From an uncultured Jatrophihabitantaceae bacterium (GTDB lineage Bacteria; Actinomycetota; Actinomycetes; Mycobacteriales; Jatrophihabitantaceae), in NCBI GenBank assembly GCA_964245745.1, contig CAXTNQ010000009.1, positions 1 through 35,838 of the forward strand: a DNA stretch of 35,838 nucleotides. Reading direction: 5' to 3'. A program made the translations under genes and the position numbers. Under the pieces are notes generated by a model, which was not told the DNA's origin, searched no databases, and saw nothing but the letters and a program-made list of their open reading frames with translations. This document shows, in pieces, positions 5,963 through 23,619 of the stretch. The first letter of the stretch is position 1; every line of letters begins with the position of its first letter.

Positions 5963-5999
5963 CGCCTCGAGCGGACCGGTTTACCGCACGGTCGAGGCG
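5963..5999. terminator. hairpin between convergent genes (candidate bidirectional terminator)
   Basis: CGCCTCGA (5963-5970) pairs with TCGAGGCG (5992-5999), with an inner GCGG/CCGC stem. The right arm overlaps the last codons of the minus-strand gene. No U-tract. Confidence 0.3.
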
Positions 6000-7135
6000 T
6001 CGGCGTACCGCAGCCGAGCGGCGATACCGCCGTCGACGTAACGGTGGGCGTCCGGCGTGATCAACACGTCGGCCCCACCGCCGATGACGGCGCGCACGAG
6101 CGCGGCATCGAGCCGGTCCTCCTGCGGCTCGTCCACGCCCATCTCGTGCAGCTCCTCGGCCGTCGCGCCGAACACCAACGGGTCAGGTCCGATCCATGCC
6201 TTCAGCGTCGACGAGGGGTCGTCGGAGACGATCAGCGTTTCGACCTGCGCTCGGCGTAGCGCGTCGATCACTGCGGGGACCCCGGCCACGGCGTAATCGC
6301 CGCGTCCGAAGCCTTCCTGCAGTTTGGCCAGGACATCGCGCCGCTCGCGCCAGACGCGGTGCAGCAGCGCGTCGTGGACCGCGGCGTCCAACGCCTCCTG
6401 CTCGGCGGCAGACTGTTGCCCGCGCGCGCCGGCGTCGATCTCGACAACGTCGACGTTGGGGTTGACGACGTTGGGGACGTCCTGCGCCACGAGCGTTCGC
6501 GCCCGTTCGTCACCACCCACCAGGACGAGCCGGGCCGCCGCCTGCCCCACGTGGTCCGCGACCCGTTCGGCGATCTCGCGGGCGTTCGCTGCCTCGGTGT
6601 TGTCCACCTTGTTCTGGAAGTGCCACGCTGAGCGGTCGGCGTCCCGCGCCATGTGCACCGGCCAGGTGACCGAGCCCTTGACCACATCGTGCTGGCCCTG
6701 CTCGCCTTCGGTGGCGACCTGCGCCGTCGTGCTCCAGACGTCGGCGCCTTCCCGGTCGGCCACGACGAGGACGTAGGCGATCGCGGGGCCCCGCTGGGCG
6801 AGGTAGGGCATCAGGTGTGGCAAGGGTGCCCATCTCGTCCCGGGACGCGCCGGTGGCTGCGGCAGGACGGCGTCGAACCGGACCTCGCCGGCCGCCGCCA
6901 CAACGACCTGCCCGGGTGGCCCGGTGGCGTCGCGGTGCTGGCCGACGACCGCCGCGATGGCGTCGAGCGTGGCCTCGTCGGCGCCGGCCTGCGCGAGTTC
7001 CTCGCGGTGAGCTCGCCAGCGCAAGTCGACCTCGCGATCGCCCTCCTCGGTCGAACGGGTGGCGTCGAGGTACATCGTGGCGTACGGGCCGGCGGTCGCG
7101 TAGATCTCGGCGGGTAACAGGGTCATGCTTGGCAC
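5981..7135 (-). CDS. bacterial eRF1/Pelota/Vms1-like (baeRF) family protein
   Basis: 384-aa ORF with GTG at 7135 and an alternative ATG at 7126. The C-terminal block DYAVAGVPAVIDALRRAQVETLIVSDD resembles eRF1 domain 3. The N-terminus (ATMYLD.....DLRWR) resembles actinobacterial release-factor-like proteins. Assignment is by eye only. Confidence 0.5.
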   Translation of the reverse strand: MPSMTLLPAEIYATAGPYATMYLDATRSTEEGDREVDLRWRAHREELAQAGADEATLDAIAAVVGQHRDATGPPGQVVVAAAGEVRFDAVLPQPPARPGTRWAPLPHLMPYLAQRGPAIAYVLVVADREGADVWSTTAQVATEGEQGQHDVVKGSVTWPVHMARDADRSAWHFQNKVDNTEAANAREIAERVADHVGQAAARLVLVGGDERARTLVAQDVPNVVNPNVDVVEIDAGARGQQSAAEQEALDAAVHDALLHRVWRERRDVLAKLQEGFGRGDYAVAGVPAVIDALRRAQVETLIVSDDPSSTLKAWIGPDPLVFGATAEELHEMGVDEPQEDRLDAALVRAVIGGGADVLITPDAHRYVDGGIAARLRYADASTVR

Positions 7136-15185: not shown

Positions 15186-16000
15186 TCGAGATCGTCGCCT
15201 GCCGGCCGCTGACCACCGTGCAAGACCTCGGTCGACCGGGCTACGCGCACCTTGGCGTGAGCCGCTCGGGCGCTGCCGATCGTGGCGCGCTGGCTCGCGC
15301 CAACCGCCTCGTCGGCAACGCGCCGGGGGCGGCGGCCCTGGAGATCACCCTGGGTGGCCTGGTCGCCCGTTTCGACCGGGCGGCCAGCATCGCGCTAACG
15401 GGCGCGCCATGCCCGGGCGGCGACCCCGACGTTGCCGTGAGCGTCGCCGCGGGTCACCTGCTCCGGCTCGTCACGCCTGAGACCGGCCTGCGTACCTACC
15501 TCTCGGTGCGCGGCGGTATCGACGTCGCGCCCGTGCTCGGCTCGCGTAGCACGGACACCCTCAGCTCGCTCGGACCGCCCGCCGTCCGCGCCGGCGCCGT
15601 CCTGCCGGTCGGGTCCGACGTCACCGGCCCGGTCAGTGGTGAGGTGGCCGTCCCGTCTCCGGTCGCGGGGGTCCGCCTCGCGGCCGGCCCGCGTGCCGAG
15701 TGGTTCGTCGAACACGCTCTGTCCACCCTGCTCGGGGCAGCGTGGACGGTCCGGCCGGACTCCGACCGGGTCGGCGTCCGCCTGGACGGACCACTCCTGC
15801 GCCGACGGGACCGGTCCGAACTGCCGAGTGAGCCGACCCTGCCTGGTGCGTTGCAGGTGCCGCCGGACGGCCGCCCGATCGTGCTCGGTCCGGACGCTCC
15901 GGTGACCGGGGGCTACCCGGTGATCGCCGTCGTGCGGTCCGTCGACCTCGATCAGATCGCGCAGCTGCGTCCCGGCGATCGTCTGCGGTTCGGGCGCTAG
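15182..16000 (+). CDS. pxpC: 5-oxoprolinase subunit C (KipA / allophanate hydrolase subunit 2 family)
   Basis: The GTG start overlaps the pxpB stop (GTGA at 15182-15185). TTVQDLGRPGYAHLGVSRSGAAD, with GGYPVIAVV near the C-terminus. Confidence 0.85.
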   Translation: MIEIVACRPLTTVQDLGRPGYAHLGVSRSGAADRGALARANRLVGNAPGAAALEITLGGLVARFDRAASIALTGAPCPGGDPDVAVSVAAGHLLRLVTPETGLRTYLSVRGGIDVAPVLGSRSTDTLSSLGPPAVRAGAVLPVGSDVTGPVSGEVAVPSPVAGVRLAAGPRAEWFVEHALSTLLGAAWTVRPDSDRVGVRLDGPLLRRRDRSELPSEPTLPGALQVPPDGRPIVLGPDAPVTGGYPVIAVVRSVDLDQIAQLRPGDRLRFGR

Positions 16001-16465: not shown

Positions 16466-16930
16466 ATGCCACGACTCGCGACCGGCGATACCGCGCCGGA
16501 CTTCACGCTTCCCGACGCCGACGGTCGCGAGGTATCGCTGCACGACTACCGCGGGCGCAAGGTCGTCGTCTACTTCTACCCGGCCGCGTCCACGCCGGGC
16601 TGCACGACGCAGGCGTGCGATTTCCGGGACAACCTCAGCGACCTCAACGACGCCGGCATCGACGTCCTCGGCGTATCGCCCGACAAGCCGGTGAAGCTCG
16701 CGTCCTTCCGCGACGCCGAGAAGCTCACCTTCCCGCTGCTCTCCGACCCGTCACACGACACCCTCGAGGCGTACGGGACGTGGGGCGAGAAGTCGATGTA
16801 CGGCAAAACCGTGACCGGCGTCATCCGCTCGACCTTCGTGGTGGACCAGCAGGGCAAGATCGACGAAGCCCTCTACAACGTCCGCGCGTCGGGTCACGTC
16901 GCGAAGCTGCGCAAGGACCTGGGCGTCTGA
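16466..16930 (+). CDS. bcp: thioredoxin-dependent thiol peroxidase (peroxiredoxin Bcp)
   Basis: FYPAASTPGCTTQAC peroxidatic-Cys motif. 154 aa. Confidence 0.9.
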   Translation: MPRLATGDTAPDFTLPDADGREVSLHDYRGRKVVVYFYPAASTPGCTTQACDFRDNLSDLNDAGIDVLGVSPDKPVKLASFRDAEKLTFPLLSDPSHDTLEAYGTWGEKSMYGKTVTGVIRSTFVVDQQGKIDEALYNVRASGHVAKLRKDLGV

Positions 16931-16964: not shown

Positions 16965-16994
16965 TCGACGGTCATTGCCCGACTCGACCGTCGA
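16965..16994. terminator. 9-bp hairpin between convergent bcp and the DinB-family gene
   Basis: TCGACGGTC (16965-16973) pairs with GACCGTCGA (16986-16994), with a 12-nt loop. It overlaps the minus-gene stop codon. Confidence 0.35.
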
Positions 16995-17556
16995 TGCACT
17001 CGCGGAGCAGGTCGGCGTGTCCGCAGTGCCGGGCGTACTCCTCGATCCGGTGCACCATCAGCTCCCGGACGGCGATCCCGTCCTCCGGTAGACGCTCACC
17101 GAGGTCGGGGTGCCGCGCCAGCGCGGCGTCGGTCGCGGCCTGCTCGGCGGCGAGCACCGCGTAGGCGGTATCGACCGAAGCCTGTTCGGCCACGGCACCG
17201 TCGAAGTCAGAGCCGCCGTACAGGCGCGGCAACGGTGCGTCGTCGCCGATCCAGTTGCGCCAGTCCCGTTCCGCCTCGGCGAGGTGGCGGAGCAGGCCGA
17301 GCAGCGACATCGTCGACGGCGGCACCGATCGACGGGCCAGCTGCTCCGCGTCCAGACCCTCACACTTCATTCGCAGGGTCATTCGGTAGCTCGTCACGTA
17401 GTCCTCGAGCGTCGCCAGTTCGCCGTCCGGGCTGACGCCGTTGCTGTTGCGCGGGTCGTCGGCCGGGTCGACCCACATATCGGGAAAGACCGTGGCCCGG
17501 GTCCACCGGTTGGGCGTGCTCACTGGATCATCCTTCGAGGTGTCACGGACCAGCAT
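16972..17556 (-). CDS. DinB/DUF664 family protein
   Basis: LEDYVTSYRMTLRMKCEGLDAEQLARRSVPPSTMSLLGLLRHLAEAERDW and C-terminal RHCGHADLLRE. Alternative GTG start at 17523. Confidence 0.7.
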   Translation of the reverse strand: MLVRDTSKDDPVSTPNRWTRATVFPDMWVDPADDPRNSNGVSPDGELATLEDYVTSYRMTLRMKCEGLDAEQLARRSVPPSTMSLLGLLRHLAEAERDWRNWIGDDAPLPRLYGGSDFDGAVAEQASVDTAYAVLAAEQAATDAALARHPDLGERLPEDGIAVRELMVHRIEEYARHCGHADLLRECIDGRVGQ

Positions 17557-17586
17557 TGTCGTCCGCAGACCCGGCCCCGCAACGGC

Positions 17587-17735
17587 GAGTGACGGATCGA
17601 TATGCCGAGTGACGGACCCTGTGCCGTCACTCAGCCCGCTGCTCGGTCACTCGATCAGGTCTCCGTCACTCGATCAGATGCGGCGTCACACGATCAGGTG
17701 TCCGTCACTCGATCAGGTGAGGCGTCACCCGGTCC
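17587..17735. repeat. phased iteron-like array: two inverted plus six direct copies of GTCAC(T)CGATCAGGT at alternating 20/19-bp spacing
   Basis: GTCAC starts at 17626, 17646, 17665, 17685, 17704 and 17724 (spacings 20, 19, 20, 19, 20). The four central units are near-identical, and units 2+3 versus 4+5 form a 39-bp higher-order repeat. Reverse-complement cores CGAGTGAC occur at 17586 and 17606 (20-bp spacing). Confidence 0.9.
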
Positions 17736-17772
17736 CGCGGGAGACACGCCCACGTAGGGTGGCCGAGGAGCG

Positions 17773-17845
17773 GGGGCCGTAGCCCAAAGGCAGAGGCGAA
17801 CGGTTTAGGTCCGTTTCAGTGAGGGTTCGACTCCCTCCGGCCCCA
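17773..17845 (+). tRNA. 73-nt class-I (short variable loop) tRNA with anticodon UAG (Leu codon CUA); identity ambiguous
   Basis: Acceptor GGGGCCG/CGGCCCC, U8, D-arm GCC(C)-AAAGGCAG-(A)GGC. Anticodon stem AACGG/CCGTT with loop TT-TAG-GT. 5-nt variable loop TCAGT, T-arm GAGGG-TTCGACT-CCCTC, discriminator A. CCA is not encoded. Confidence 0.75.
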
Positions 17846-17917
17846 CTCGAGGACCTTCGGCAGAACGCCGGGGTGTTGTGCACGGCGGCCGCGCACGAAC
17901 CTCTACAGGCTGACCCG

Positions 17918-19453
17918 TCAGGACGCCAGAGCGCTGCGAATATCGTGCCCGACGGAGGTCAGACACTTGCCGTCGGTGAGCCGCCACTTCCACCCGTGCA
18001 TCTGGCAGGTCAGCACGTCACCTTCCACGGAGCCGAACCGCGACAGGTCCGCCTTCAGATGCGGGCAACGTCGCTGCACGTCCCAACCGTCGATCGTTAT
18101 CGACTCAGCGGCCTCGGCGGCGTTCTGCTCGGTGAACCAGCCCTCCGCATAGTTGAGCCGTTCCTCGGACAGGCACTTGAAGAACACGTAGACGAACTCG
18201 TTGTACGGGCCGACGCGTTGGGCAGAGAACCGGCAGGAGAGGAACAGCGAGTTCACCCAGTCGATCTCGTGCTCGGCGACCAGCTTCTCGAGGTAGGCGC
18301 GCCGCGTACGGAAGCGGTAGCGGACGTTTTCGTCCGTGTATTCACGGACCTCGCGGGCCACGAAGTCGATGAGTATGTCGACGTCACCCCGCGTGGCGTC
18401 CTCGGCGGTGAATCGCACGCCACCGTCGATGCCGGCCGCCACATGATCCGCTTCTTCGAGCAACGGCGTGAACCACTTGCCGAGCTCGGCCAGCAGATCG
18501 ATCTCGGGACGCGCCCACGTGGCCTTCTCGGCCTCGACCGCGGGCTGCTGGCGTCCCTGGTACCCCCGCAGATAGGCCGTCTTGTCCGCGAACACCCGAG
18601 CGGGATCGAAGGGATGCGTGACCAGGCACTCCTGCTCGACCGCGGCGACCGTACCGGGCAGCAGGAGCCGGCCTTCGTGGTGTCCATGCCCGGCCAGCCA
18701 GGAGAGGTATACCGACTGGTCCGGGAAGATGTTCGACTCGTCGCCGAAGATGTCGTTGAACCCCCACAGTTCCTCGTCCAGGAAGCACGGGGGACCCGCT
18801 GTCGGGAAGACGAAGCGCGCCCCGCACTCCTCGATGTAGCGCAGCGTGCGGTCGAACTGCCGTTCGCGCTTCTGGGCCCCGAGCGCCTGCTTGGCCCGCT
18901 TCGGTAGCTCGTACACCATCGGGAACCAGATGGCGCCGGAGAACTGCACGAGGTAGGAGTCGATCGGGCCGAGTGCGGTGAAGACGTTCAACGAGGACGG
19001 GCGAGCGTCGTTCTGGTTGAGCAGCCGCTGTTGTCCGTCGTACACCCACAGGGACGAGTCGCCGATCGGACCGTCGGTCGGGGAGACCAGCGACTGGATC
19101 ATGATGTGCAGCCCGTCGACCTCGACGATCTCCTCCGACTTCGGCGCTACGAAACGGTGAAACCCCAGGTCGCGCAGGGCGTCCTCGAGGTCGGACGGCG
19201 GGTTGTCGGGCTGGAGGACCGTGATGTCCTTATCGACGTAGCGGCGCAGGTGTTCGGGGTCGAAGTGATCATGATGAAGGTGGCTGACGAACAGGTAGTC
19301 GGCGCGGCCGTAGGCGTCCCAGTCCAACTGTGAGTTATCCGGAAACGGGAACCACGAGCCGAAGTACGCGGGGTTGACCCAGGGGTCGGTGAGGATGCTG
19401 CCGTGGGCGGTCTCGATCAGGACGCTGGCGTGGCCCAACCCGGTCAGTCGCAC
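17918..19453 (-). CDS. MBL-fold (metallo-beta-lactamase-like) / C-terminal Rieske [2Fe-2S] fusion protein
   Basis: Probable GTG start at 19453 (VRLTGLGHASVLIE...); the longer ORF would overlap the CHAT gene by 167 nt. HLHHDHFD metal motif. C-terminal Rieske ligands CPH...CQMH (RRCPHLKADL ... LTCQMHGWKW). Confidence 0.75.
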   Translation of the reverse strand: MRLTGLGHASVLIETAHGSILTDPWVNPAYFGSWFPFPDNSQLDWDAYGRADYLFVSHLHHDHFDPEHLRRYVDKDITVLQPDNPPSDLEDALRDLGFHRFVAPKSEEIVEVDGLHIMIQSLVSPTDGPIGDSSLWVYDGQQRLLNQNDARPSSLNVFTALGPIDSYLVQFSGAIWFPMVYELPKRAKQALGAQKRERQFDRTLRYIEECGARFVFPTAGPPCFLDEELWGFNDIFGDESNIFPDQSVYLSWLAGHGHHEGRLLLPGTVAAVEQECLVTHPFDPARVFADKTAYLRGYQGRQQPAVEAEKATWARPEIDLLAELGKWFTPLLEEADHVAAGIDGGVRFTAEDATRGDVDILIDFVAREVREYTDENVRYRFRTRRAYLEKLVAEHEIDWVNSLFLSCRFSAQRVGPYNEFVYVFFKCLSEERLNYAEGWFTEQNAAEAAESITIDGWDVQRRCPHLKADLSRFGSVEGDVLTCQMHGWKWRLTDGKCLTSVGHDIRSALAS

Positions 19454-19526: not shown

Positions 19527-22244
19527 TCATGAGGCTCGATCGCGAAGGAGCGGCGGGGCGAAGCCGGCGCCGAAGCACAGGAACCCGGCGGCCGTCGCGA
19601 TCCCGGCCGGCCCGGTGGCCGCCGTCTCGACCTGGGCGGCCGCCAGCGCGGCCGCGGGCGCCTCGCCGCGACCCAACCTCTCGTGCAGCGCATTCATCAG
19701 GGGACGGGTCTCGACGTCGAGGATTGGGAGCACCGACGCCACCAGTTGTGCACTCCCCTGGGCCAGCAACGTGGCCGTCAGCCCCAGCAGCTCGTCGCCC
19801 GACGGCACCACAGGACGACCGGAGTCGCAGGCGGCCACGACTACCGTGTGCGCGGCGCGGGGCAACCGCTCGAGGTCGTAGATCATCAGCGGCCCGTCGC
19901 TCAGCCGGATCGCGTCGAACTGCGGGTTGTCGGCTCGGACCCGCCCGTGCGCCGCGAGGTGAACGAGCGCGGCGCCGTCCATGGCCTGCAGGACCCGTCC
20001 CACCGTGGCGGCCCCGTCGGTCAACGCCGTGGCGTCGTGCCATCTGGCCACGTCGCGGGCTTCCTCGACCGCCGCCGGCAGGTCGGGGCCGGCGGCGACG
20101 ACGATCCGATCCGTGCCGGGCGCCCGCGACCGAGCGGCGTGCCACAACGTCGCCGACGGGCTTACCGTCACCGGACGTCCCGCACACGAGGGCAACGTCG
20201 ACCACGGGAGCCACTGCAGGCGTCCGGTCGGGACGATCACCAAGGACCGGTCGCCCAGCTCGGTGAGTGGGCAGATCATCAGCTGATCCAGTTCGCGTGC
20301 CGCCGCTTCGAGCAGCCGCCTCGCGGCCGTCAGCTCGGCCGGACGGGCTCGTCGACGGGCGAGGCGATGCAGCGCGAACGGCAACCGTTCGGCGAGCGAC
20401 GTCACGCGCGACACGGCGCCGAGTACGTGCAGGCGGGTGCGACCGTCCACGAGCGTCACCGCGTACAGGGTGTCGTCCAGGGCGACGTACTCGATCAGTG
20501 CCACATCGCCCAGGGCAGCGCGCAAACCGGAAACCGTGATCAAGGCCGCCGACTTGCCGCCCGCGACCCGCCGCCGGCGATACCGATCGCGGACGACGCG
20601 CTCGAGGTTGGCCTGCCGGGCCAGCAGAGTCGGGCTGGCTTCACCCTGGGCGCGCCGGTCCTCGACCTCGCGGATTACCGACCGCAGTTCGACGAGCCGT
20701 TCGGCGAGTTCAGGATCGTCGGGCGGCCGTCCGGGAGGCCGGGCCAGGTGGCTGGCGCGGCCCAGCTCCGCCCACGCCAGCACATCTCGGGCCGAGCCGT
20801 GCTCGATCGCGATGCGCGCGCCGAGGACGCTCAATTCGTTGCGGTGCGTCGCTACGTGAGCCCTGATGTCGGTCGCGCCGAGCACGGCGGCGTAGTCGTC
20901 GAGGATGCGTAGCCCGCGCCGGACCGCCCGCCGCGCGCCGGCGTCGTCGTCGTGCGCGCGGTGCAGCACGGCCGTGGCGTACCACGCTCGAGCGCGGACC
21001 GTCGCCGTGCCGTTCGTCCGGCTGCGGGCGGCCGCGCGCAGGAACCGTTCGGCGTCCGCCGGCCGACGACGCGTCAGGGCCGCCTCACCGGCTTGGATGC
21101 GGGCCTCGAGCGCGACGTGGGGCCACAGCCCGGAGGCGGCGGCGATGGTCTGCTCGAGGTGGCCGGTATCCGGCGCGCGTCCGGTGCCGACCAGGCGCAG
21201 CGTGATCACGATCAGGCGTGCGAGGGCCGCCAGCTGGCGTTGACCCTGGCGGTCCAGCTCCCGGGCGGCCGACCGAGCCTGGCCGAGGGCACCGTCCAGA
21301 TTGCCCTGCAACTGCCGCGTACGCGCCAGGATCAAGCGCGCTTCCGGCAGGATCGCGCCGCGTCCCTCGGTCAGACACGCCGCGACGGCACGTTCGGCGA
21401 CCTCGGACGCCTCGGCAATGAGTCGCGCCGAGAGCAAGAGCTCTGCCCGGTCGCGCAGTAACGGTCCGAGCTGAGCGCCGAGCTCGACGAAGCGGGCCCC
21501 GGCCCGGTCGAAGTACTCGAGGGCGGCCGGGATGTCGCCGCGCAGCACTTCGAGGTAGCCCAGGTTGTGGTCGACATGACCTTGGGAAAGCGCCGCGTCG
21601 GACTTCTCGAACAGCTCGCGCGCCTCCTGCAGGTCGGCGTCGGCGGCGCCGAAGCTCAGCAGGTGCGCGTGGGCGTTACCCCGGTTCATCAGCACCTTGC
21701 CGAGCCACACCGGGTCGTCCGCTTCGCGCAGCACCGCGATCGCCGCGCTGTAGTCCGGCACCGCCACCGCGATGCGCCCTTGCTGGTGCCGTACGACGCC
21801 ACGTAACGCGAGCGCGCGGGCGAGCTCCAGACCGTCGAGGACATCGACCGCTCGCCCGATCACGCGGACCGCCTCCGCTGATCGGCCGCGCCAGCTCAGC
21901 AGGTAGGCGAGGCTCATCCTGGCCTCGGCCTCGACCGTCGGCGAGCCGGCGCGGTGACCCCACCGGACCGCCTCTCGGGCCGCGCCCAAGGCAGCTTCGA
22001 CGTCGTCCAATTGGAACAACGCTAAGCCCTGCACCCGCGCGGCGATCGAATGCACGACAGCGTCCGACGTCGGCACCTGTAATGCGGTGGCCAGCTTGAG
22101 GGCGCGACGCGGGTCGGCGTCCACAAGGGTCAGGGCGTCACGCGCCTGCTGCTCCACGGACGTCGTCACGTACGGCCCTTCCCCTGCAGGTCGTTCACAG
22201 GCATTCTCCTGTATCAGGCGCGCCGACGCCTCCTCCTTGCCCAT
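19527..22244 (-). CDS. TPR-repeat protein with C-terminal CHAT (caspase-like) peptidase domain
   Basis: About 550 aa of helical TPR-like repeats, then a CHAT domain with a His/Cys dyad (ALVHLAAHGRV ... VVVAACDSGRP). No signal peptide or TM. Start is ATG 22244 (no SD) or GTG 22169 (preceded by GGGGAAGGG). Confidence 0.85.
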   Translation of the reverse strand: MGKEEASARLIQENACERPAGEGPYVTTSVEQQARDALTLVDADPRRALKLATALQVPTSDAVVHSIAARVQGLALFQLDDVEAALGAAREAVRWGHRAGSPTVEAEARMSLAYLLSWRGRSAEAVRVIGRAVDVLDGLELARALALRGVVRHQQGRIAVAVPDYSAAIAVLREADDPVWLGKVLMNRGNAHAHLLSFGAADADLQEARELFEKSDAALSQGHVDHNLGYLEVLRGDIPAALEYFDRAGARFVELGAQLGPLLRDRAELLLSARLIAEASEVAERAVAACLTEGRGAILPEARLILARTRQLQGNLDGALGQARSAARELDRQGQRQLAALARLIVITLRLVGTGRAPDTGHLEQTIAAASGLWPHVALEARIQAGEAALTRRRPADAERFLRAAARSRTNGTATVRARAWYATAVLHRAHDDDAGARRAVRRGLRILDDYAAVLGATDIRAHVATHRNELSVLGARIAIEHGSARDVLAWAELGRASHLARPPGRPPDDPELAERLVELRSVIREVEDRRAQGEASPTLLARQANLERVVRDRYRRRRVAGGKSAALITVSGLRAALGDVALIEYVALDDTLYAVTLVDGRTRLHVLGAVSRVTSLAERLPFALHRLARRRARPAELTAARRLLEAAARELDQLMICPLTELGDRSLVIVPTGRLQWLPWSTLPSCAGRPVTVSPSATLWHAARSRAPGTDRIVVAAGPDLPAAVEEARDVARWHDATALTDGAATVGRVLQAMDGAALVHLAAHGRVRADNPQFDAIRLSDGPLMIYDLERLPRAAHTVVVAACDSGRPVVPSGDELLGLTATLLAQGSAQLVASVLPILDVETRPLMNALHERLGRGEAPAAALAAAQVETAATGPAGIATAAGFLCFGAGFAPPLLRDRAS

Positions 22245-22284: not shown

Positions 22285-23619
22285 ATGGCCGAGACGACTC
22301 GACTCGCACTCGAGCACACCGACGACATCGTCGTCGCGCTGTCCCACTCCGACCTGGTCCTCGACGAGCTCGGACGGCTCGTCGAGATGGAGTTGCTTGC
22401 CGCGCCGCCTCACATGCGACACCACAGCGACCGCCTGGGCCTCGGCATGATCGAGCTGAAGTTCCGGCCTGATCCCGTCGTCACGTCGGCCGAAGGTGTG
22501 GCCGCGGTGTCGAGCTTCGGGGTCACCGAGGCGCTGGCCATGGTGCGCGAGTCGTGTCGGTACAAGTACCGCGGCTGGATGCCCACCATGGGCAAGAACC
22601 GAGTGGTCAGCGGCATCGCAGGTGAAGGTGGTTACCTGGCCGGAGGCGGTGGCTACCTCGCCGGCGGCGGTGGCTATCTAGCCGGAGGCGGCGGTTATCT
22701 CGCCGGCGGGGGTGGCTACCTGGCCGGAGGCGGCGGCTACCTCGCGGGTGGCGGCGGCTACCTGGCCGGTGGCGGCGGCTACCTCGCCGGAGGCGGCGGC
22801 GGCCTACCCGAACTCGCCGACCACGCACCCCGTCGTCCGCGCGGCGATCGTGGCCACGACGCGAAGATCGCGATCCTGGACGGTCCGATCTACCGCGGTA
22901 CGGCCGTGGCCGGCCACGTCGACTACGTCGGCAAGCAGCCGGCCAAGCGCGAGCCGATGCCGATGGGCGGTGGCCACGCCGTCTTCATCCTCGGCCTGGT
23001 GCAGGACGCGGCACCGGGGGCGCGGATCACCGTGCGACCGACGCTGGACCTGCATGCGGTGGCGACGGCGTGGGAGGTGGCCACCGCGATGGCCGACTGC
23101 GCCGACGGCGAAGTCGACGTCGTCAACCTCTCCCTCGGGTGCTACACGGTCGACAACGAGCCGCCGCTGCTGCTGCAGCGCGCCGTCGACCTGTTGAGCG
23201 CTCGCACGCTGGTCGTTGCCGCGGCCGGCAACCATCGCCAACCGCGTCACCCGCGCCCGTTCTGGCCCGCAGCGATGGAGAACGTCATCGCGGTCGGCGC
23301 TCGTGACGAGGACAACCGGCTCGCCACGTTCAGCCCACGCGCGCCGTGGGTCGACGTGACCGCGCCCGGCGTGCACGTGGTCAGCCAGTACCTCGACGGC
23401 AAGGTCGAGTTGGCGCCGCGCACCGAGCGCGACCCCGCGGAGATTGAGGAGTTTCCCGGCTACGCCCGGTGGCGCGGCACGTCGTTCGCGGCGGCCACGG
23501 TCACCGGCGAGATCGCCCGGCACATGACCGGCAAGCGCGACCCCCACAAGGCGCTCGAGCGCATGCTGGCGCAGCCGCACGAGGCCACGCCCGTCCGCCG
23601 CTACCACCACCACGCGTGA
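22285..23619 (+). CDS. cytoplasmic S8 (subtilisin-family) serine peptidase with about 112-aa N-terminal domain and (GGGGYLA)x8 linker
   Basis: ATG preceded by AGGAGA. Catalytic triad contexts AKIAILDG (Asp), GGGHAVFILG (His), GTSFAAATVTG (Ser); oxyanion AAAGNH. No signal peptide. Confidence 0.85.
   Translation: MAETTRLALEHTDDIVVALSHSDLVLDELGRLVEMELLAAPPHMRHHSDRLGLGMIELKFRPDPVVTSAEGVAAVSSFGVTEALAMVRESCRYKYRGWMPTMGKNRVVSGIAGEGGYLAGGGGYLAGGGGYLAGGGGYLAGGGGYLAGGGGYLAGGGGYLAGGGGYLAGGGGGLPELADHAPRRPRGDRGHDAKIAILDGPIYRGTAVAGHVDYVGKQPAKREPMPMGGGHAVFILGLVQDAAPGARITVRPTLDLHAVATAWEVATAMADCADGEVDVVNLSLGCYTVDNEPPLLLQRAVDLLSARTLVVAAAGNHRQPRHPRPFWPAAMENVIAVGARDEDNRLATFSPRAPWVDVTAPGVHVVSQYLDGKVELAPRTERDPAEIEEFPGYARWRGTSFAAATVTGEIARHMTGKRDPHKALERMLAQPHEATPVRRYHHHA
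22627..22803 (+). repeat. in-frame 21-bp tandem repeat x8 encoding GGGGYLA
   Basis: Tyr codons fall at 22633 plus 21n (n=0-7). Peptide units are identical, while codons vary synonymously (Tyr TAC/TAT, Leu CTG/CTC/CTA, Ala GCC/GCG, Gly GGT/GGC/GGA/GGG). Confidence 0.95.

What the first reader, a model, noticed from the sequence alone, without database searches (positions are those of the whole stretch)
17773..17845. Canonical-looking class-I tRNA carrying a leucine (UAG) anticodon
**Seen in the sequence**
- The 73-nt cloverleaf is clean: 7-bp acceptor, U8, G18G19, a possible A15:U48 Levitt pair, T-loop TTCGACT and discriminator A73.
- Its anticodon loop is UU-UAG-GU.
- Its variable loop is only 5 nt.

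**Established knowledge**
- Bacterial tRNA-Leu species are class II, with a long variable arm and a length of about 85 nt.
- A73 is a major LeuRS identity element.
- m1G37 is typical of CUN readers.

**Inference**
- This is either an atypical Leu isoacceptor or a tRNA of another identity that reads CUA (recoding or mistranslation).
- It could also be a tRNA used outside translation, or a decoy or target linked to the neighbouring protease locus.
- The D-arm (GCC...GGC with a 13:22 mismatch) looks more Gln/Glu/Cys-like than Leu-like.
Basis: partly seen in the sequence, partly recalled or inferred. Interest (0 to 1): 0.66.

Follow-up and report, generated by a model that had tools for sequence, protein, structure and literature searches.

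The report
Short-arm leucine tRNA of actinobacteria
This is a real, working-looking leucine tRNA that lacks the long extra arm textbooks expect in bacteria; such "type I" leucine tRNAs are already known from Streptomyces, and this one is a widespread version that reads the rare codon CUA, so the finding is genuine but largely ordinary.

Summary
It is not a one-off. The same short tRNA with a UAG anticodon occurs in many Actinomycetota, usually just downstream of the peroxiredoxin gene bcp. Across 81 distinct sequences, 99.9 % of stem positions pair and 16 of 20 pairs show compensatory changes. Its D-arm has the layout of long-arm bacterial tRNA-Leu. A covariance model built from the UAG family recovers short-arm tRNA-Leu genes of all five leucine anticodons ahead of other tRNAs. 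CTA codons in genomes carrying it sit at leucine positions as often as CTG and CTC do. The one CTA in the window's namH is Leu in 118 of 119 orthologues. A "type I" tRNA-Leu(CAA), charged by the normal LeuRS and not deletable, was described in Streptomyces coelicolor (Fan et al. 2019, NAR). The best reading is therefore an ordinary translational tRNA-Leu(UAG) of that known type. Recoding, decoy and protease-linked roles are not supported. Still open is whether it is the only CUA reader in these genomes. Novelty: new member of a known kind.

The parts
17773..17845 (+). Type I (short variable loop) tRNA-Leu gene with anticodon UAG; 73 nt, no encoded CCA
   Evidence: ARAGORN; Rfam RF00005 at 54.8 bits; family covariation, 99.9 % paired and 16/20 pairs with double-sided changes
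17755..17760 (+). TAGGGT, a -10-like hexamer (TANNNT) 13-18 nt upstream of the mature 5' end; putative own promoter (inferred)
   Evidence: A TANNNT hexamer lies at -22..-3 in 43 of 90 related loci, against 2 of 90 in a control interval. The E. coli-type consensus scan finds nothing
16466..16930 (+). bcp (AhpC/TSA peroxiredoxin), the conserved upstream same-strand neighbour of this tRNA family
   Evidence: Pfam; Bcp found in 62 loci, mostly within 600 nt of the tRNA; the Bcp C-terminus runs straight into the tRNA in several loci
16972..17556 (-). DinB / mycothiol-S-transferase family gene lying between bcp and the tRNA in this window only (context, not part of the tRNA unit)
   Evidence: Pfam PF04978/PF12867; no match to this protein in any related locus
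17918..19453 (-). namH-type UDP-MurNAc hydroxylase (MBL-SCP2-Rieske), convergent downstream neighbour; holds the CTA codon at 18905-18907 used in the decoding test
   Evidence: Pfam; source names; neighbour of the tRNA in only 9 loci; the CTA codon aligns to Leu in 118/119 orthologues

Best explanation
The gene encodes a functional type I tRNA-Leu(UAG), that is, a leucine tRNA with a 5-nt variable loop instead of the usual long arm. The inferred mechanism is as follows. It is transcribed from its own short-leader promoter or together with bcp, receives CCA after transcription, and is charged with leucine by the organism's ordinary LeuRS. That enzyme in actinobacteria does not need the long arm. 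The tRNA then reads CUA (and, through U34 wobble, at least CUG) as leucine on the ribosome. It belongs to an old, vertically inherited actinobacterial gene family and has paralogues or analogues with the other leucine anticodons. Shown here: the gene, its conservation and covariation, its family relationships, and that CTA is used as a Leu codon. Inferred: charging by LeuRS, expression, and whether it is the only CUA reader.
For: 1. It is a bona fide tRNA.
2. The same short tRNA(UAG) sits at the syntenic site in relatives.
About 100 are actinobacterial: Pseudonocardiales, Streptosporangiales including Thermobifida fusca, Jatrophihabitantaceae, Nakamurella, Kribbella/Nocardioidaceae and Acidimicrobiia.
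4. Across 81 distinct sequences, 99.9 % of cells pair and 16/20 pairs show double-sided changes. No shuffle reaches this (0/500), and the slid controls are far lower.
5. Linkage to bcp holds across orders.
6. The D-arm layout matches real type II tRNA-Leu genes, and A15/U48 and A73 are near-invariant or invariant.
7. The covariance model built from the UAG family gives 103 hits at 60 bits or more. Of these, 100 are short-arm Leu tRNAs of any anticodon, with CAA types up to 83.6 bits. Long-arm Leu reaches at most 58.8 bits and non-Leu at most 64.2.
8. At 68 CTA sites, the mean Leu fraction in orthologues is 0.57, against 0.57 for CTG and 0.62 for CTC. The window's namH CTA codon is Leu in 118/119 orthologues.
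9. Published precedent: the S. coelicolor type I tRNA-Leu(CAA) has a 5-nt variable loop ACAGC, is leucylated by the single LeuRS (kcat/Km 6.25 vs 14.2 s-1 uM-1), and could not be deleted (PMC6614811).
10. Phages of Thermobifida, Mycobacterium and Streptomyces carry short tRNA-Leu genes, including a UAG one in T. fusca phage P318.
Against: There is no expression, CCA-addition or aminoacylation data for this gene or any UAG member. I could not inventory whole genomes, so a canonical long-arm tRNA-Leu(UAG) may coexist and do most of the CUA reading. The codon test shows that CTA means Leu; it does not show which tRNA delivers it. LeuRS of this lineage was not examined. In Fan et al., E. coli LeuRS and one Streptomyces LeuRS could not charge the type I tRNA, so charging depends on the enzyme. 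I never saw the S. coelicolor tRNA sequence itself; the link rests on features stated in the paper and on metagenomic CAA-type genes. The family set was collected with a pattern that fixed GGYAGA, YTTAGG and the T loop, so invariance at those positions is by construction.
Confidence: 0.85

Rival explanations
1. The tRNA has a non-leucine identity and inserts another amino acid at CUA, either as a codon reassignment or as deliberate mistranslation, as with the Streptomyces tRNAProX/ProRSx system.
For: The class I shape is unusual for bacterial tRNA-Leu. Anomalous identity-switched tRNAs do exist in actinobacteria (ProRSx is listed in PMC9437257; the details are from my own knowledge of Vargas-Rodriguez et al. 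2021).
Against: CTA codons align to Leu as often as CTG and CTC do, and 118/119 orthologues have Leu at the window's namH CTA. The scaffold is Leu-specific: 100 of 103 top covariance-model hits are Leu tRNAs. The D-arm is Leu-type. There is no G3:U70 (pair 3:70 is GC 57, CG 23, AU 1). No extra synthetase gene is among the 29 window ORFs scanned. From established knowledge, most other synthetases need their own anticodon.
Confidence: 0.03
2. The tRNA works outside translation, as a substrate, decoy or target tied to the neighbouring CHAT-TPR/subtilase locus or to cell-wall chemistry (namH).
For: It lies 72 nt from namH and about 1.7 kb from a CHAT-TPR gene. tRNA-dependent cell-wall and natural-product enzymes exist in actinobacteria (established knowledge).
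Against: The linkage is not conserved: NamH is near the tRNA in 9 loci and CHAT/S8 in 3, whereas Bcp appears in 62. L003 keeps CHAT-namH without the tRNA. No Fem/CDPS/PEARL-like or synthetase genes are in the window. The anticodon loop and G37 are those of a decoding tRNA.
Confidence: 0.02
3. It is a redundant extra copy, for example a relic of a phage or tRNA array, alongside a canonical long-arm tRNA-Leu(UAG) that does the real work.
For: Short-arm Leu tRNAs are common in phages and in tRNA arrays. I could not check the rest of any carrier genome.
Against: The gene keeps one chromosomal position next to bcp across several orders, with strong compensatory evolution. That is not expected of a dispensable relic. 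The window shows no integrase or phage genes near it. None of the roughly 100 actinobacterial hits came from Streptomyces, whose UAG isoacceptor is long-armed (PMC6614811), which hints at a complementary distribution. The S. coelicolor type I tRNA is itself essential.
Confidence: 0.1

Closest known systems
Type I tRNA-Leu(CAA) of Streptomyces coelicolor (Fan, Huang, Ji, Wang 2019, Nucleic Acids Res 47:6369; PMC6614811)
   Same: Both are actinobacterial leucine tRNAs with a 5-nt variable loop carrying C45-A46-G47 (paper: ACAGC; window: UCAGU). Both have U8:A14, G18G19, U54:A58 and A73. Metagenomic CAA-type genes share the window tRNA's D-arm, variable region and T-arm and score up to 83.6 bits with the UAG-family model.
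   Different: The anticodon is UAG (codon CUA) rather than CAA (codon UUG). It occurs in non-Streptomyces lineages; in S. coelicolor the UAG isoacceptor is long-armed. The acceptor stem differs (GGGGCCG vs mostly GCCCCGG in CAA types), position 48 is U rather than C, and there is no biochemical data. I did not see the S. coelicolor sequence itself.
Canonical type II bacterial tRNA-Leu (e.g. E. coli tRNA-Leu; L128 UAA and L233 GAG genes seen here)
   Same: Shared features are the Leu anticodon family, A73, a 3-bp D stem with a 13/22 mismatch, the D loop A14-A15-N(1-2)-G18-G19-Y-A-G-A, and the anticodon loop YU-NAG-G37.
   Different: The window tRNA has no long variable arm (5 nt vs 13-17 nt), A9 instead of G9, C13 instead of G13, and a D stem of GCC/GGC instead of GYG/CRC.
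Human mitochondrial tRNA-Leu(UUR), the classical type I tRNA-Leu
   Same: Both are short-variable-loop leucine tRNAs charged without a long arm (as summarised in PMC6614811).
   Different: The mitochondrial tRNA is organellar and AT-rich, with a weak elbow and its own LeuRS. ScoLeuRS does not charge it. No sequence relationship was tested here.
bldA tRNA-Leu(UAA) of Streptomyces (rare-codon regulatory tRNA)
   Same: Both are leucine tRNAs for a very rare codon in a high-GC genome (CTA 1.58 and TTA 0.37 per 1000 codons in the carrier loci).
   Different: bldA is long-armed, dispensable and developmentally regulated. Nothing here shows regulation or dispensability of the UAG tRNA.
tRNAProX/ProRSx mistranslation system of Streptomyces (Vargas-Rodriguez et al. 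2021; listed in PMC9437257)
   Same: Both are actinobacterial tRNAs whose shape and anticodon look mismatched at first sight.
   Different: There the body is proline-type with a non-Pro anticodon and a dedicated synthetase. Here the body is Leu-type, the anticodon is Leu, there is no dedicated synthetase nearby, and CTA is used as Leu.

Membership tests
tRNA (Rfam RF00005) | Full-length match to the tRNA covariance model above the gathering score | tested here: met
   54.8 bits vs 29, model positions 1-71/71; ARAGORN agrees
tRNA (Rfam RF00005) | Cloverleaf maintained by compensatory substitutions among homologues | tested here: met
   81 sequences, 99.9 % paired, 16/20 pairs with double-sided changes, 0/500 shuffles as high
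Bacterial type I tRNA-Leu (Fan et al. 2019) | Leucine anticodon | tested here: met
   U34 A35 G36 in a canonical 7-nt loop with U33 and G37
Bacterial type I tRNA-Leu (Fan et al. 2019) | Short variable loop of exactly 5 nt including nucleotide 48 | tested here: met
   U44 C45 A46 G47 U48; 5 nt in all 81 family members, with A46 G47 U48 at 90 % or more. The paper gives 5 nt as the minimum for charging
Bacterial type I tRNA-Leu (Fan et al. 2019) | U8:A14 tertiary pair (the shared identity element in the paper) and elbow nucleotides G18 G19 / U55 C56, U54:A58 | tested here: met
   All are present in the window sequence. U8 and A14 are invariant in the family without being fixed by the search pattern
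Bacterial type I tRNA-Leu (Fan et al. 2019) | Same sequence and structure scaffold as type I tRNA-Leu(CAA) genes | tested here: met
   The UAG-family model scores lone high-GC CAA-type genes at 65-84 bits, above long-arm Leu (58.8 or less) and non-Leu tRNAs (64.2 or less). The S. coelicolor gene itself was not available
Bacterial type I tRNA-Leu (Fan et al. 2019) | Leucylation by the organism's single LeuRS | not testable with these tools
   Needs in vitro charging. Indirect support only: CTA codons are Leu
Bacterial type I tRNA-Leu (Fan et al. 2019) | Cognate LeuRS carries the leucine-specific-domain features that allow type I charging | not tested
   leuS is not in the window or in any fetched locus
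Canonical type II bacterial tRNA-Leu | Long variable arm (more than 10 nt, stem-loop) | tested here: not met
   The variable loop is 5 nt, compared with 13-17 nt in L128, L233 and L155
Canonical type II bacterial tRNA-Leu | Leu-type D arm (3-bp stem, 13/22 mismatch, AA-N-GG-Y-AGA loop) and A73 | tested here: met
   Direct comparison with long-arm Leu genes
Identity-switched / mistranslating tRNA (tRNAProX type) | The codon read by the tRNA is occupied by a different amino acid than the standard code predicts, or a dedicated synthetase is encoded nearby | tested here: not met
   CTA behaves as Leu; no synthetase among the 29 window ORFs scanned
bldA-like regulatory rare-codon tRNA | Cognate codon is rare | tested here: met
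   CTA occurs at 1.58 per 1000 codons in 185,248 codons of carrier loci
bldA-like regulatory rare-codon tRNA | Conditional expression and dispensability, with cognate codons concentrated in regulated genes | not testable with these tools
   No expression data; too few CTA sites in the window for an enrichment test

The most novel reading that the evidence does not exclude
In this lineage the short-arm tRNA-Leu(UAG) is the only reader of the rare codon CUA. Its synthesis is controlled through the lineage-specific array of eight operator-like repeats just upstream (17586-17734), making CUA a regulated codon in the manner of bldA/UUA in Streptomyces. A weaker and much more likely part of this reading is that type I tRNA-Leu has replaced the long-arm isoacceptor as sole CUA decoder across several actinobacterial orders. 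That would mean arm-independent LeuRS recognition is widespread rather than a Streptomyces curiosity.
Probability: 0.07. Interest if true: 0.6.

Novelty: new member of a known kind. Interest (0 to 1): 0.3.

Why it matters
For annotating this window it matters little, because this is a housekeeping tRNA gene. More broadly, the only published bacterial case treats type I tRNA-Leu as a rarity of some Streptomyces and calls their LeuRS the only prokaryotic enzyme known to charge both types. The scans here show short-arm tRNA-Leu genes to be much more common than that. A UAG form is conserved next to bcp across several actinobacterial orders, and a CAA form is abundant in metagenomes. All five leucine anticodons occur in phage genomes and tRNA arrays from several phyla. 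If confirmed biochemically, the textbook rule (bacterial tRNA-Leu is class II) and the assumed LeuRS recognition rules would need qualifying. Isotype predictors and orthogonal-pair design that rely on the long arm should take this into account.

Tried and rejected
- Looking up the long stop-to-stop namH ORF as an exact protein failed because the start codon was wrong. The Bcp look-up returned only a 1.1-kb contig.
- The E. coli-type promoter/terminator scan found nothing around the gene, which is uninformative for a 70 % GC actinobacterium. A position-specific TANNNT count across 90 loci was used instead.
- The upstream repeat array was tested as a possible part of the tRNA unit and rejected. 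It is absent upstream of the tRNA in related loci.
- The protease and namH linkage was tested and rejected.
- The supplement of Fan et al., which holds the tRNA sequences, is not held. The S. coelicolor gene could therefore not be aligned directly, and metagenomic CAA-type genes were used as proxies.
- Four literature searches found no description of a bacterial type I tRNA-Leu(UAG). This holds only for the library searched.
- Whole-genome tRNA inventories of carrier genomes and inspection of their LeuRS were not possible.
- The window-only CTA test has just three usable sites. One lies in a low-complexity repeat of the subtilase gene and aligns to Gly, which I regard as unreliable.

Full report
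**1. The observation**

The window is 69.8 % G+C and contains one tRNA gene. ARAGORN calls tRNA-Leu(tag) at 17773-17846. The Rfam tRNA model matches 17773-17845 (+) over its full length at 54.8 bits (gathering score 29). Read from the sequence, the molecule has these features:
- a 7-bp acceptor stem, then U8 A9
- a 3-bp D stem (GCC/GGC) with a C13/A22 mismatch
- D loop AAAGGCAG
- anticodon loop UU-UAG-GU
- a 5-nt variable loop UCAGU
- T loop UUCGACU
- discriminator A73, with no encoded CCA

Every detail in the finding is correct. The RNA folds better than all 200 shuffles.

**2. Surroundings**

Genes were called by third-position GC and scanned against Pfam. The order around the tRNA is:
- bcp, an AhpC/TSA peroxiredoxin (16466-16930, +)
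- a DinB/mycothiol-S-transferase gene (16972-17556, -)
- a repeat array (17586-17734)
- the tRNA
- a namH-type UDP-MurNAc hydroxylase (17918-19453, -)
- a CHAT-TPR protein
- an S8 subtilase

None of the 29 ORFs scanned is an aminoacyl-tRNA synthetase, a tRNA-dependent transferase, an integrase or a phage gene. NamH homologues place the contig near Jatrophihabitantaceae and Pseudonocardiales MAGs.

**3. The gene is conserved and under selection**

Three of four orthologous namH loci carry the same short tRNA(UAG), already with compensatory changes at 27:43, 31:39 and 50:64.

I then scanned one genome per species with a pattern that only a class I tRNA with this D loop and a UAG anticodon can match. 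About 100 of them are single genes in Actinomycetota:
- Pseudonocardiales: Amycolatopsis, Pseudonocardia, Kutzneria, Saccharopolyspora, Prauserella, Actinophytocola, Actinomycetospora, Lentzea
- Streptosporangiales: Thermobifida fusca, Nonomuraea, Streptosporangium, Planotetraspora
- Jatrophihabitantaceae/Frankiales
- Nakamurella
- Kribbella/Nocardioidaceae
- Corynebacterium flavescens
- Acidimicrobiia

No Streptomyces or Mycobacterium appears among them.

On 81 distinct sequences (alignment A2), 99.9 % of stem cells form standard pairs. Sixteen of 20 pairs show changes on both sides. No shuffle out of 500 reaches the observed values, and the slid controls collapse to 35-54 % paired. A pseudogene or chance cloverleaf is excluded.

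**4. Which neighbours are conserved**

A Bcp homologue was found in 62 loci, mostly within 600 nt of the tRNA and often with the Bcp stop codon 13-120 nt upstream on the same strand. NamH is nearby in 9 loci and CHAT/S8 in 3. The window's DinB gene and repeat array are found in none.

The conserved unit is therefore bcp followed by tRNA-Leu(UAG). The protease locus is incidental.

A TANNNT hexamer lies at -24 to -13 in 43 of 90 loci, against 2 of 90 in a control interval. In the window it is TAGGGT at 17755-17760. This suggests an own promoter with a short leader (inference).

**5. What kind of tRNA it is**

Real long-arm tRNA-Leu genes from high-GC contigs have this D region:
- L128 (UAA): ...UG GUG G AAUCGGUAGA CAC...
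- L233 (GAG): ...UG GUG G AAAGGCAGA CAC...

The window tRNA has UA GCC C AAAGGCAGA GGC. The layout is the same: a 3-bp stem, a 13/22 mismatch, and A14 A15 N(1-2) G18 G19 Y A G A. It differs at position 9 (A vs G) and position 13 (C vs G).

A15 and U48 are conserved at 90 % or more and A73 is invariant. None of these was fixed by the search pattern.

It returned many lone high-GC genes of the form GCCCCGG-UA-GCCCAAYNGGCAGAGGC ... CUCAAA ... NCAGUG-GGGUUCGA ... A.

A covariance model built only from the UAG family was run over 100 loci rich in other tRNAs and cross-tabulated against ARAGORN's calls:

| Class of hit | Score (bits) |
|---|---|
| Short-arm Leu(CAA) | up to 83.6 |
| Long-arm Leu | 58.8 or less |
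| Best non-Leu tRNA | 64.2 |

Of 103 hits at 60 bits or more, 100 are short-arm Leu tRNAs (CAA, UAG, UAA, GAG, CAG). The scaffold is a leucine-specific, short-arm family.

**6. Decoding**

In 92 high-GC loci that carry the tRNA (185,248 codons), CTA is rare but present at 1.58 per 1000 codons. At 68 CTA sites aligned to orthologues that use a different codon, the results were as follows:

| Codon | Mean Leu fraction in orthologues |
|---|---|
| CTA | 0.57 |
| CTG | 0.57 |
| CTC | 0.62 |

The only CTA codon in the window's namH (18905-18907, - strand) is Leu in 118 of 119 orthologues. In the CHAT gene, the CTA at 20910 aligns to Leu in both orthologues available. CUA therefore means leucine in these organisms, and reassignment is not supported.

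**7. What is already known**

Fan et al. (2019, Nucleic Acids Res 47:6369; PMC6614811) reported the following:
- S. coelicolor has four long-arm tRNA-Leu isoacceptors (UAA, GAG, CAG, UAG) and one type I tRNA-Leu(CAA) with a 5-nt variable loop A44-C45-A46-G47-C48.
- Its single LeuRS leucylates both types (kcat/Km 6.25 vs 14.2 s-1 uM-1).
- E. coli LeuRS cannot charge the type I tRNA.
- U8:A14, C74 and a variable loop of at least 5 nt matter for charging. A73 does not.
- The leucine-specific domain of LeuRS is required.
- The CAA gene could not be deleted.

The window tRNA has the listed features (5-nt loop with C45 A46 G47, U8:A14, G18G19, U54:A58) but carries UAG and comes from lineages outside Streptomyces. 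Four searches of the paper library found no description of a type I UAG isoacceptor.

Public phage annotations already label such short genes tRNA-Leu. Mycobacteriophage Bonray has a long Leu(cag) next to short Leu(gag) and Leu(caa). Streptomyces phage Tomas has a short Leu(taa). Thermobifida phage P318 carries an unannotated short Leu(UAG). This suggests that host LeuRS enzymes in these genera accept short-arm Leu tRNAs.

**8. Mechanism proposed**

*Shown:* a conserved, structurally constrained, Leu-type short-arm tRNA with a UAG anticodon, and CUA used as a Leu codon.

*Inferred:*
- transcription from a TANNNT promoter or with bcp
- 3' CCA addition by the CCA-adding enzyme
- m1G37 by TrmD (G36-G37 context; established knowledge)
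- leucylation by the housekeeping LeuRS through U8:A14, the elbow and the 3' end rather than the variable arm, as in S. coelicolor
- reading of CUA, and by U34 wobble at least CUG

Whether it is the only CUA reader is open (about even odds). In favour are the long-term retention at one locus, the absence of Streptomyces (which has a long-arm UAG) among the hits, and the essentiality of the S. coelicolor type I gene. No genome-wide inventory was possible.

**9. Rivals**

- Non-Leu identity or mistranslation: contradicted by sections 5 and 6.
- A non-translational or protease-linked role: contradicted by section 4 and the gene content of the window.
- A redundant relic: made unlikely by sections 3 and 4, but not excluded.

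**10. Verdict**

The object is a new member (UAG isoacceptor, non-Streptomyces lineages) of a known kind, bacterial type I tRNA-Leu.

Interest is modest. The specific gene is ordinary. However, the breadth of short-arm tRNA-Leu genes seen here, across several actinobacterial orders, in phages and in tRNA arrays from other phyla, is wider than the literature I could find implies.

Noticed in passing
window 17586-17734: There are six direct copies (about 19.5-nt period) and two inverted copies of a CCGTCACTCGATCAGG-like motif between the start of the DinB/MST gene and the tRNA. It looks like an operator or iteron array. The motif occurs nowhere else in the window (4 strict matches vs 0.57 expected) and is absent upstream of the tRNA in 90 related loci.
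   Followed up: partly
L055 (Dehalococcoidia MAG, 29 tRNAs); L006/L024/L068 (Kribbella); L008, L016, L020 and other Chryseobacterium loci; metagenome loci L129, L143, L173, L174, L200, L225, L244: Dense tRNA arrays contain short-arm tRNA-Leu genes of all five leucine anticodons, sometimes beside long-arm ones. In L055 all four Leu tRNAs are short. Short-arm Leu tRNAs therefore also occur outside Actinomycetota, probably on mobile elements.
   Followed up: partly
L247 1497-1570 (Thermobifida phage P318, MK240575.1, about 15700-15773): An unannotated short-arm tRNA-Leu(UAG) of the same family lies between orf16 and the small terminase gene of a T. fusca phage.
   Followed up: partly
L246 1408-1643 (Mycobacterium phage Bonray): A long-arm tRNA-Leu(cag, 86 nt) sits directly next to short-arm tRNA-Leu(gag, 74 nt) and tRNA-Leu(caa, 75 nt). 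All three are annotated as tRNA-Leu by the depositors.
   Followed up: no
L040 (alphaproteobacterial endosymbiont), L052 (DhMRE endosymbiont), L023/L061/L119 (Armatimonadota), L124 (Glaciecola MAG contig): Short-arm tRNA-Leu(UAG) genes with different acceptor and D stems occur singly or in pairs in unrelated bacteria (with a short Leu(cag) in L040 and a short Leu(taa) in L124). The origins may be independent.
   Followed up: no
window 5981-7135 (-): This ORF matches the bacterial archaeo-eukaryotic release factor family 2 (baeRF_family2, 84 bits). It is a translation-related protein of uncertain role, about 10 kb from the tRNA.
   Followed up: no
window 22627-22800 (+): A 21/42-nt tandem repeat (8 copies, Gly/Ala/Tyr-rich) lies inside the S8 subtilase gene. 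The CHAT-TPR plus S8 pair recurs in L003 and L004/L005, there with a sigma-70 region-2 gene.
   Followed up: no
L125, L174, L244, L236, L194, L230: ARAGORN reports odd tRNAs: 4-nt anticodons (gacc at 91 nt in L125; tcaa in L174) and suppressor-like anticodons in arrays (tta in L244, cta in L236, tca in L194 and L230).
   Followed up: no
L004/L005 7804-10606: In one Jatrophihabitantaceae lineage, an AMP-binding enzyme, small ORFs and an HNH nuclease gene are inserted between namH and the tRNA. In the window, a DinB gene is inserted on the other side of the tRNA. The tRNA flanks appear to be insertion hot spots.
   Followed up: no
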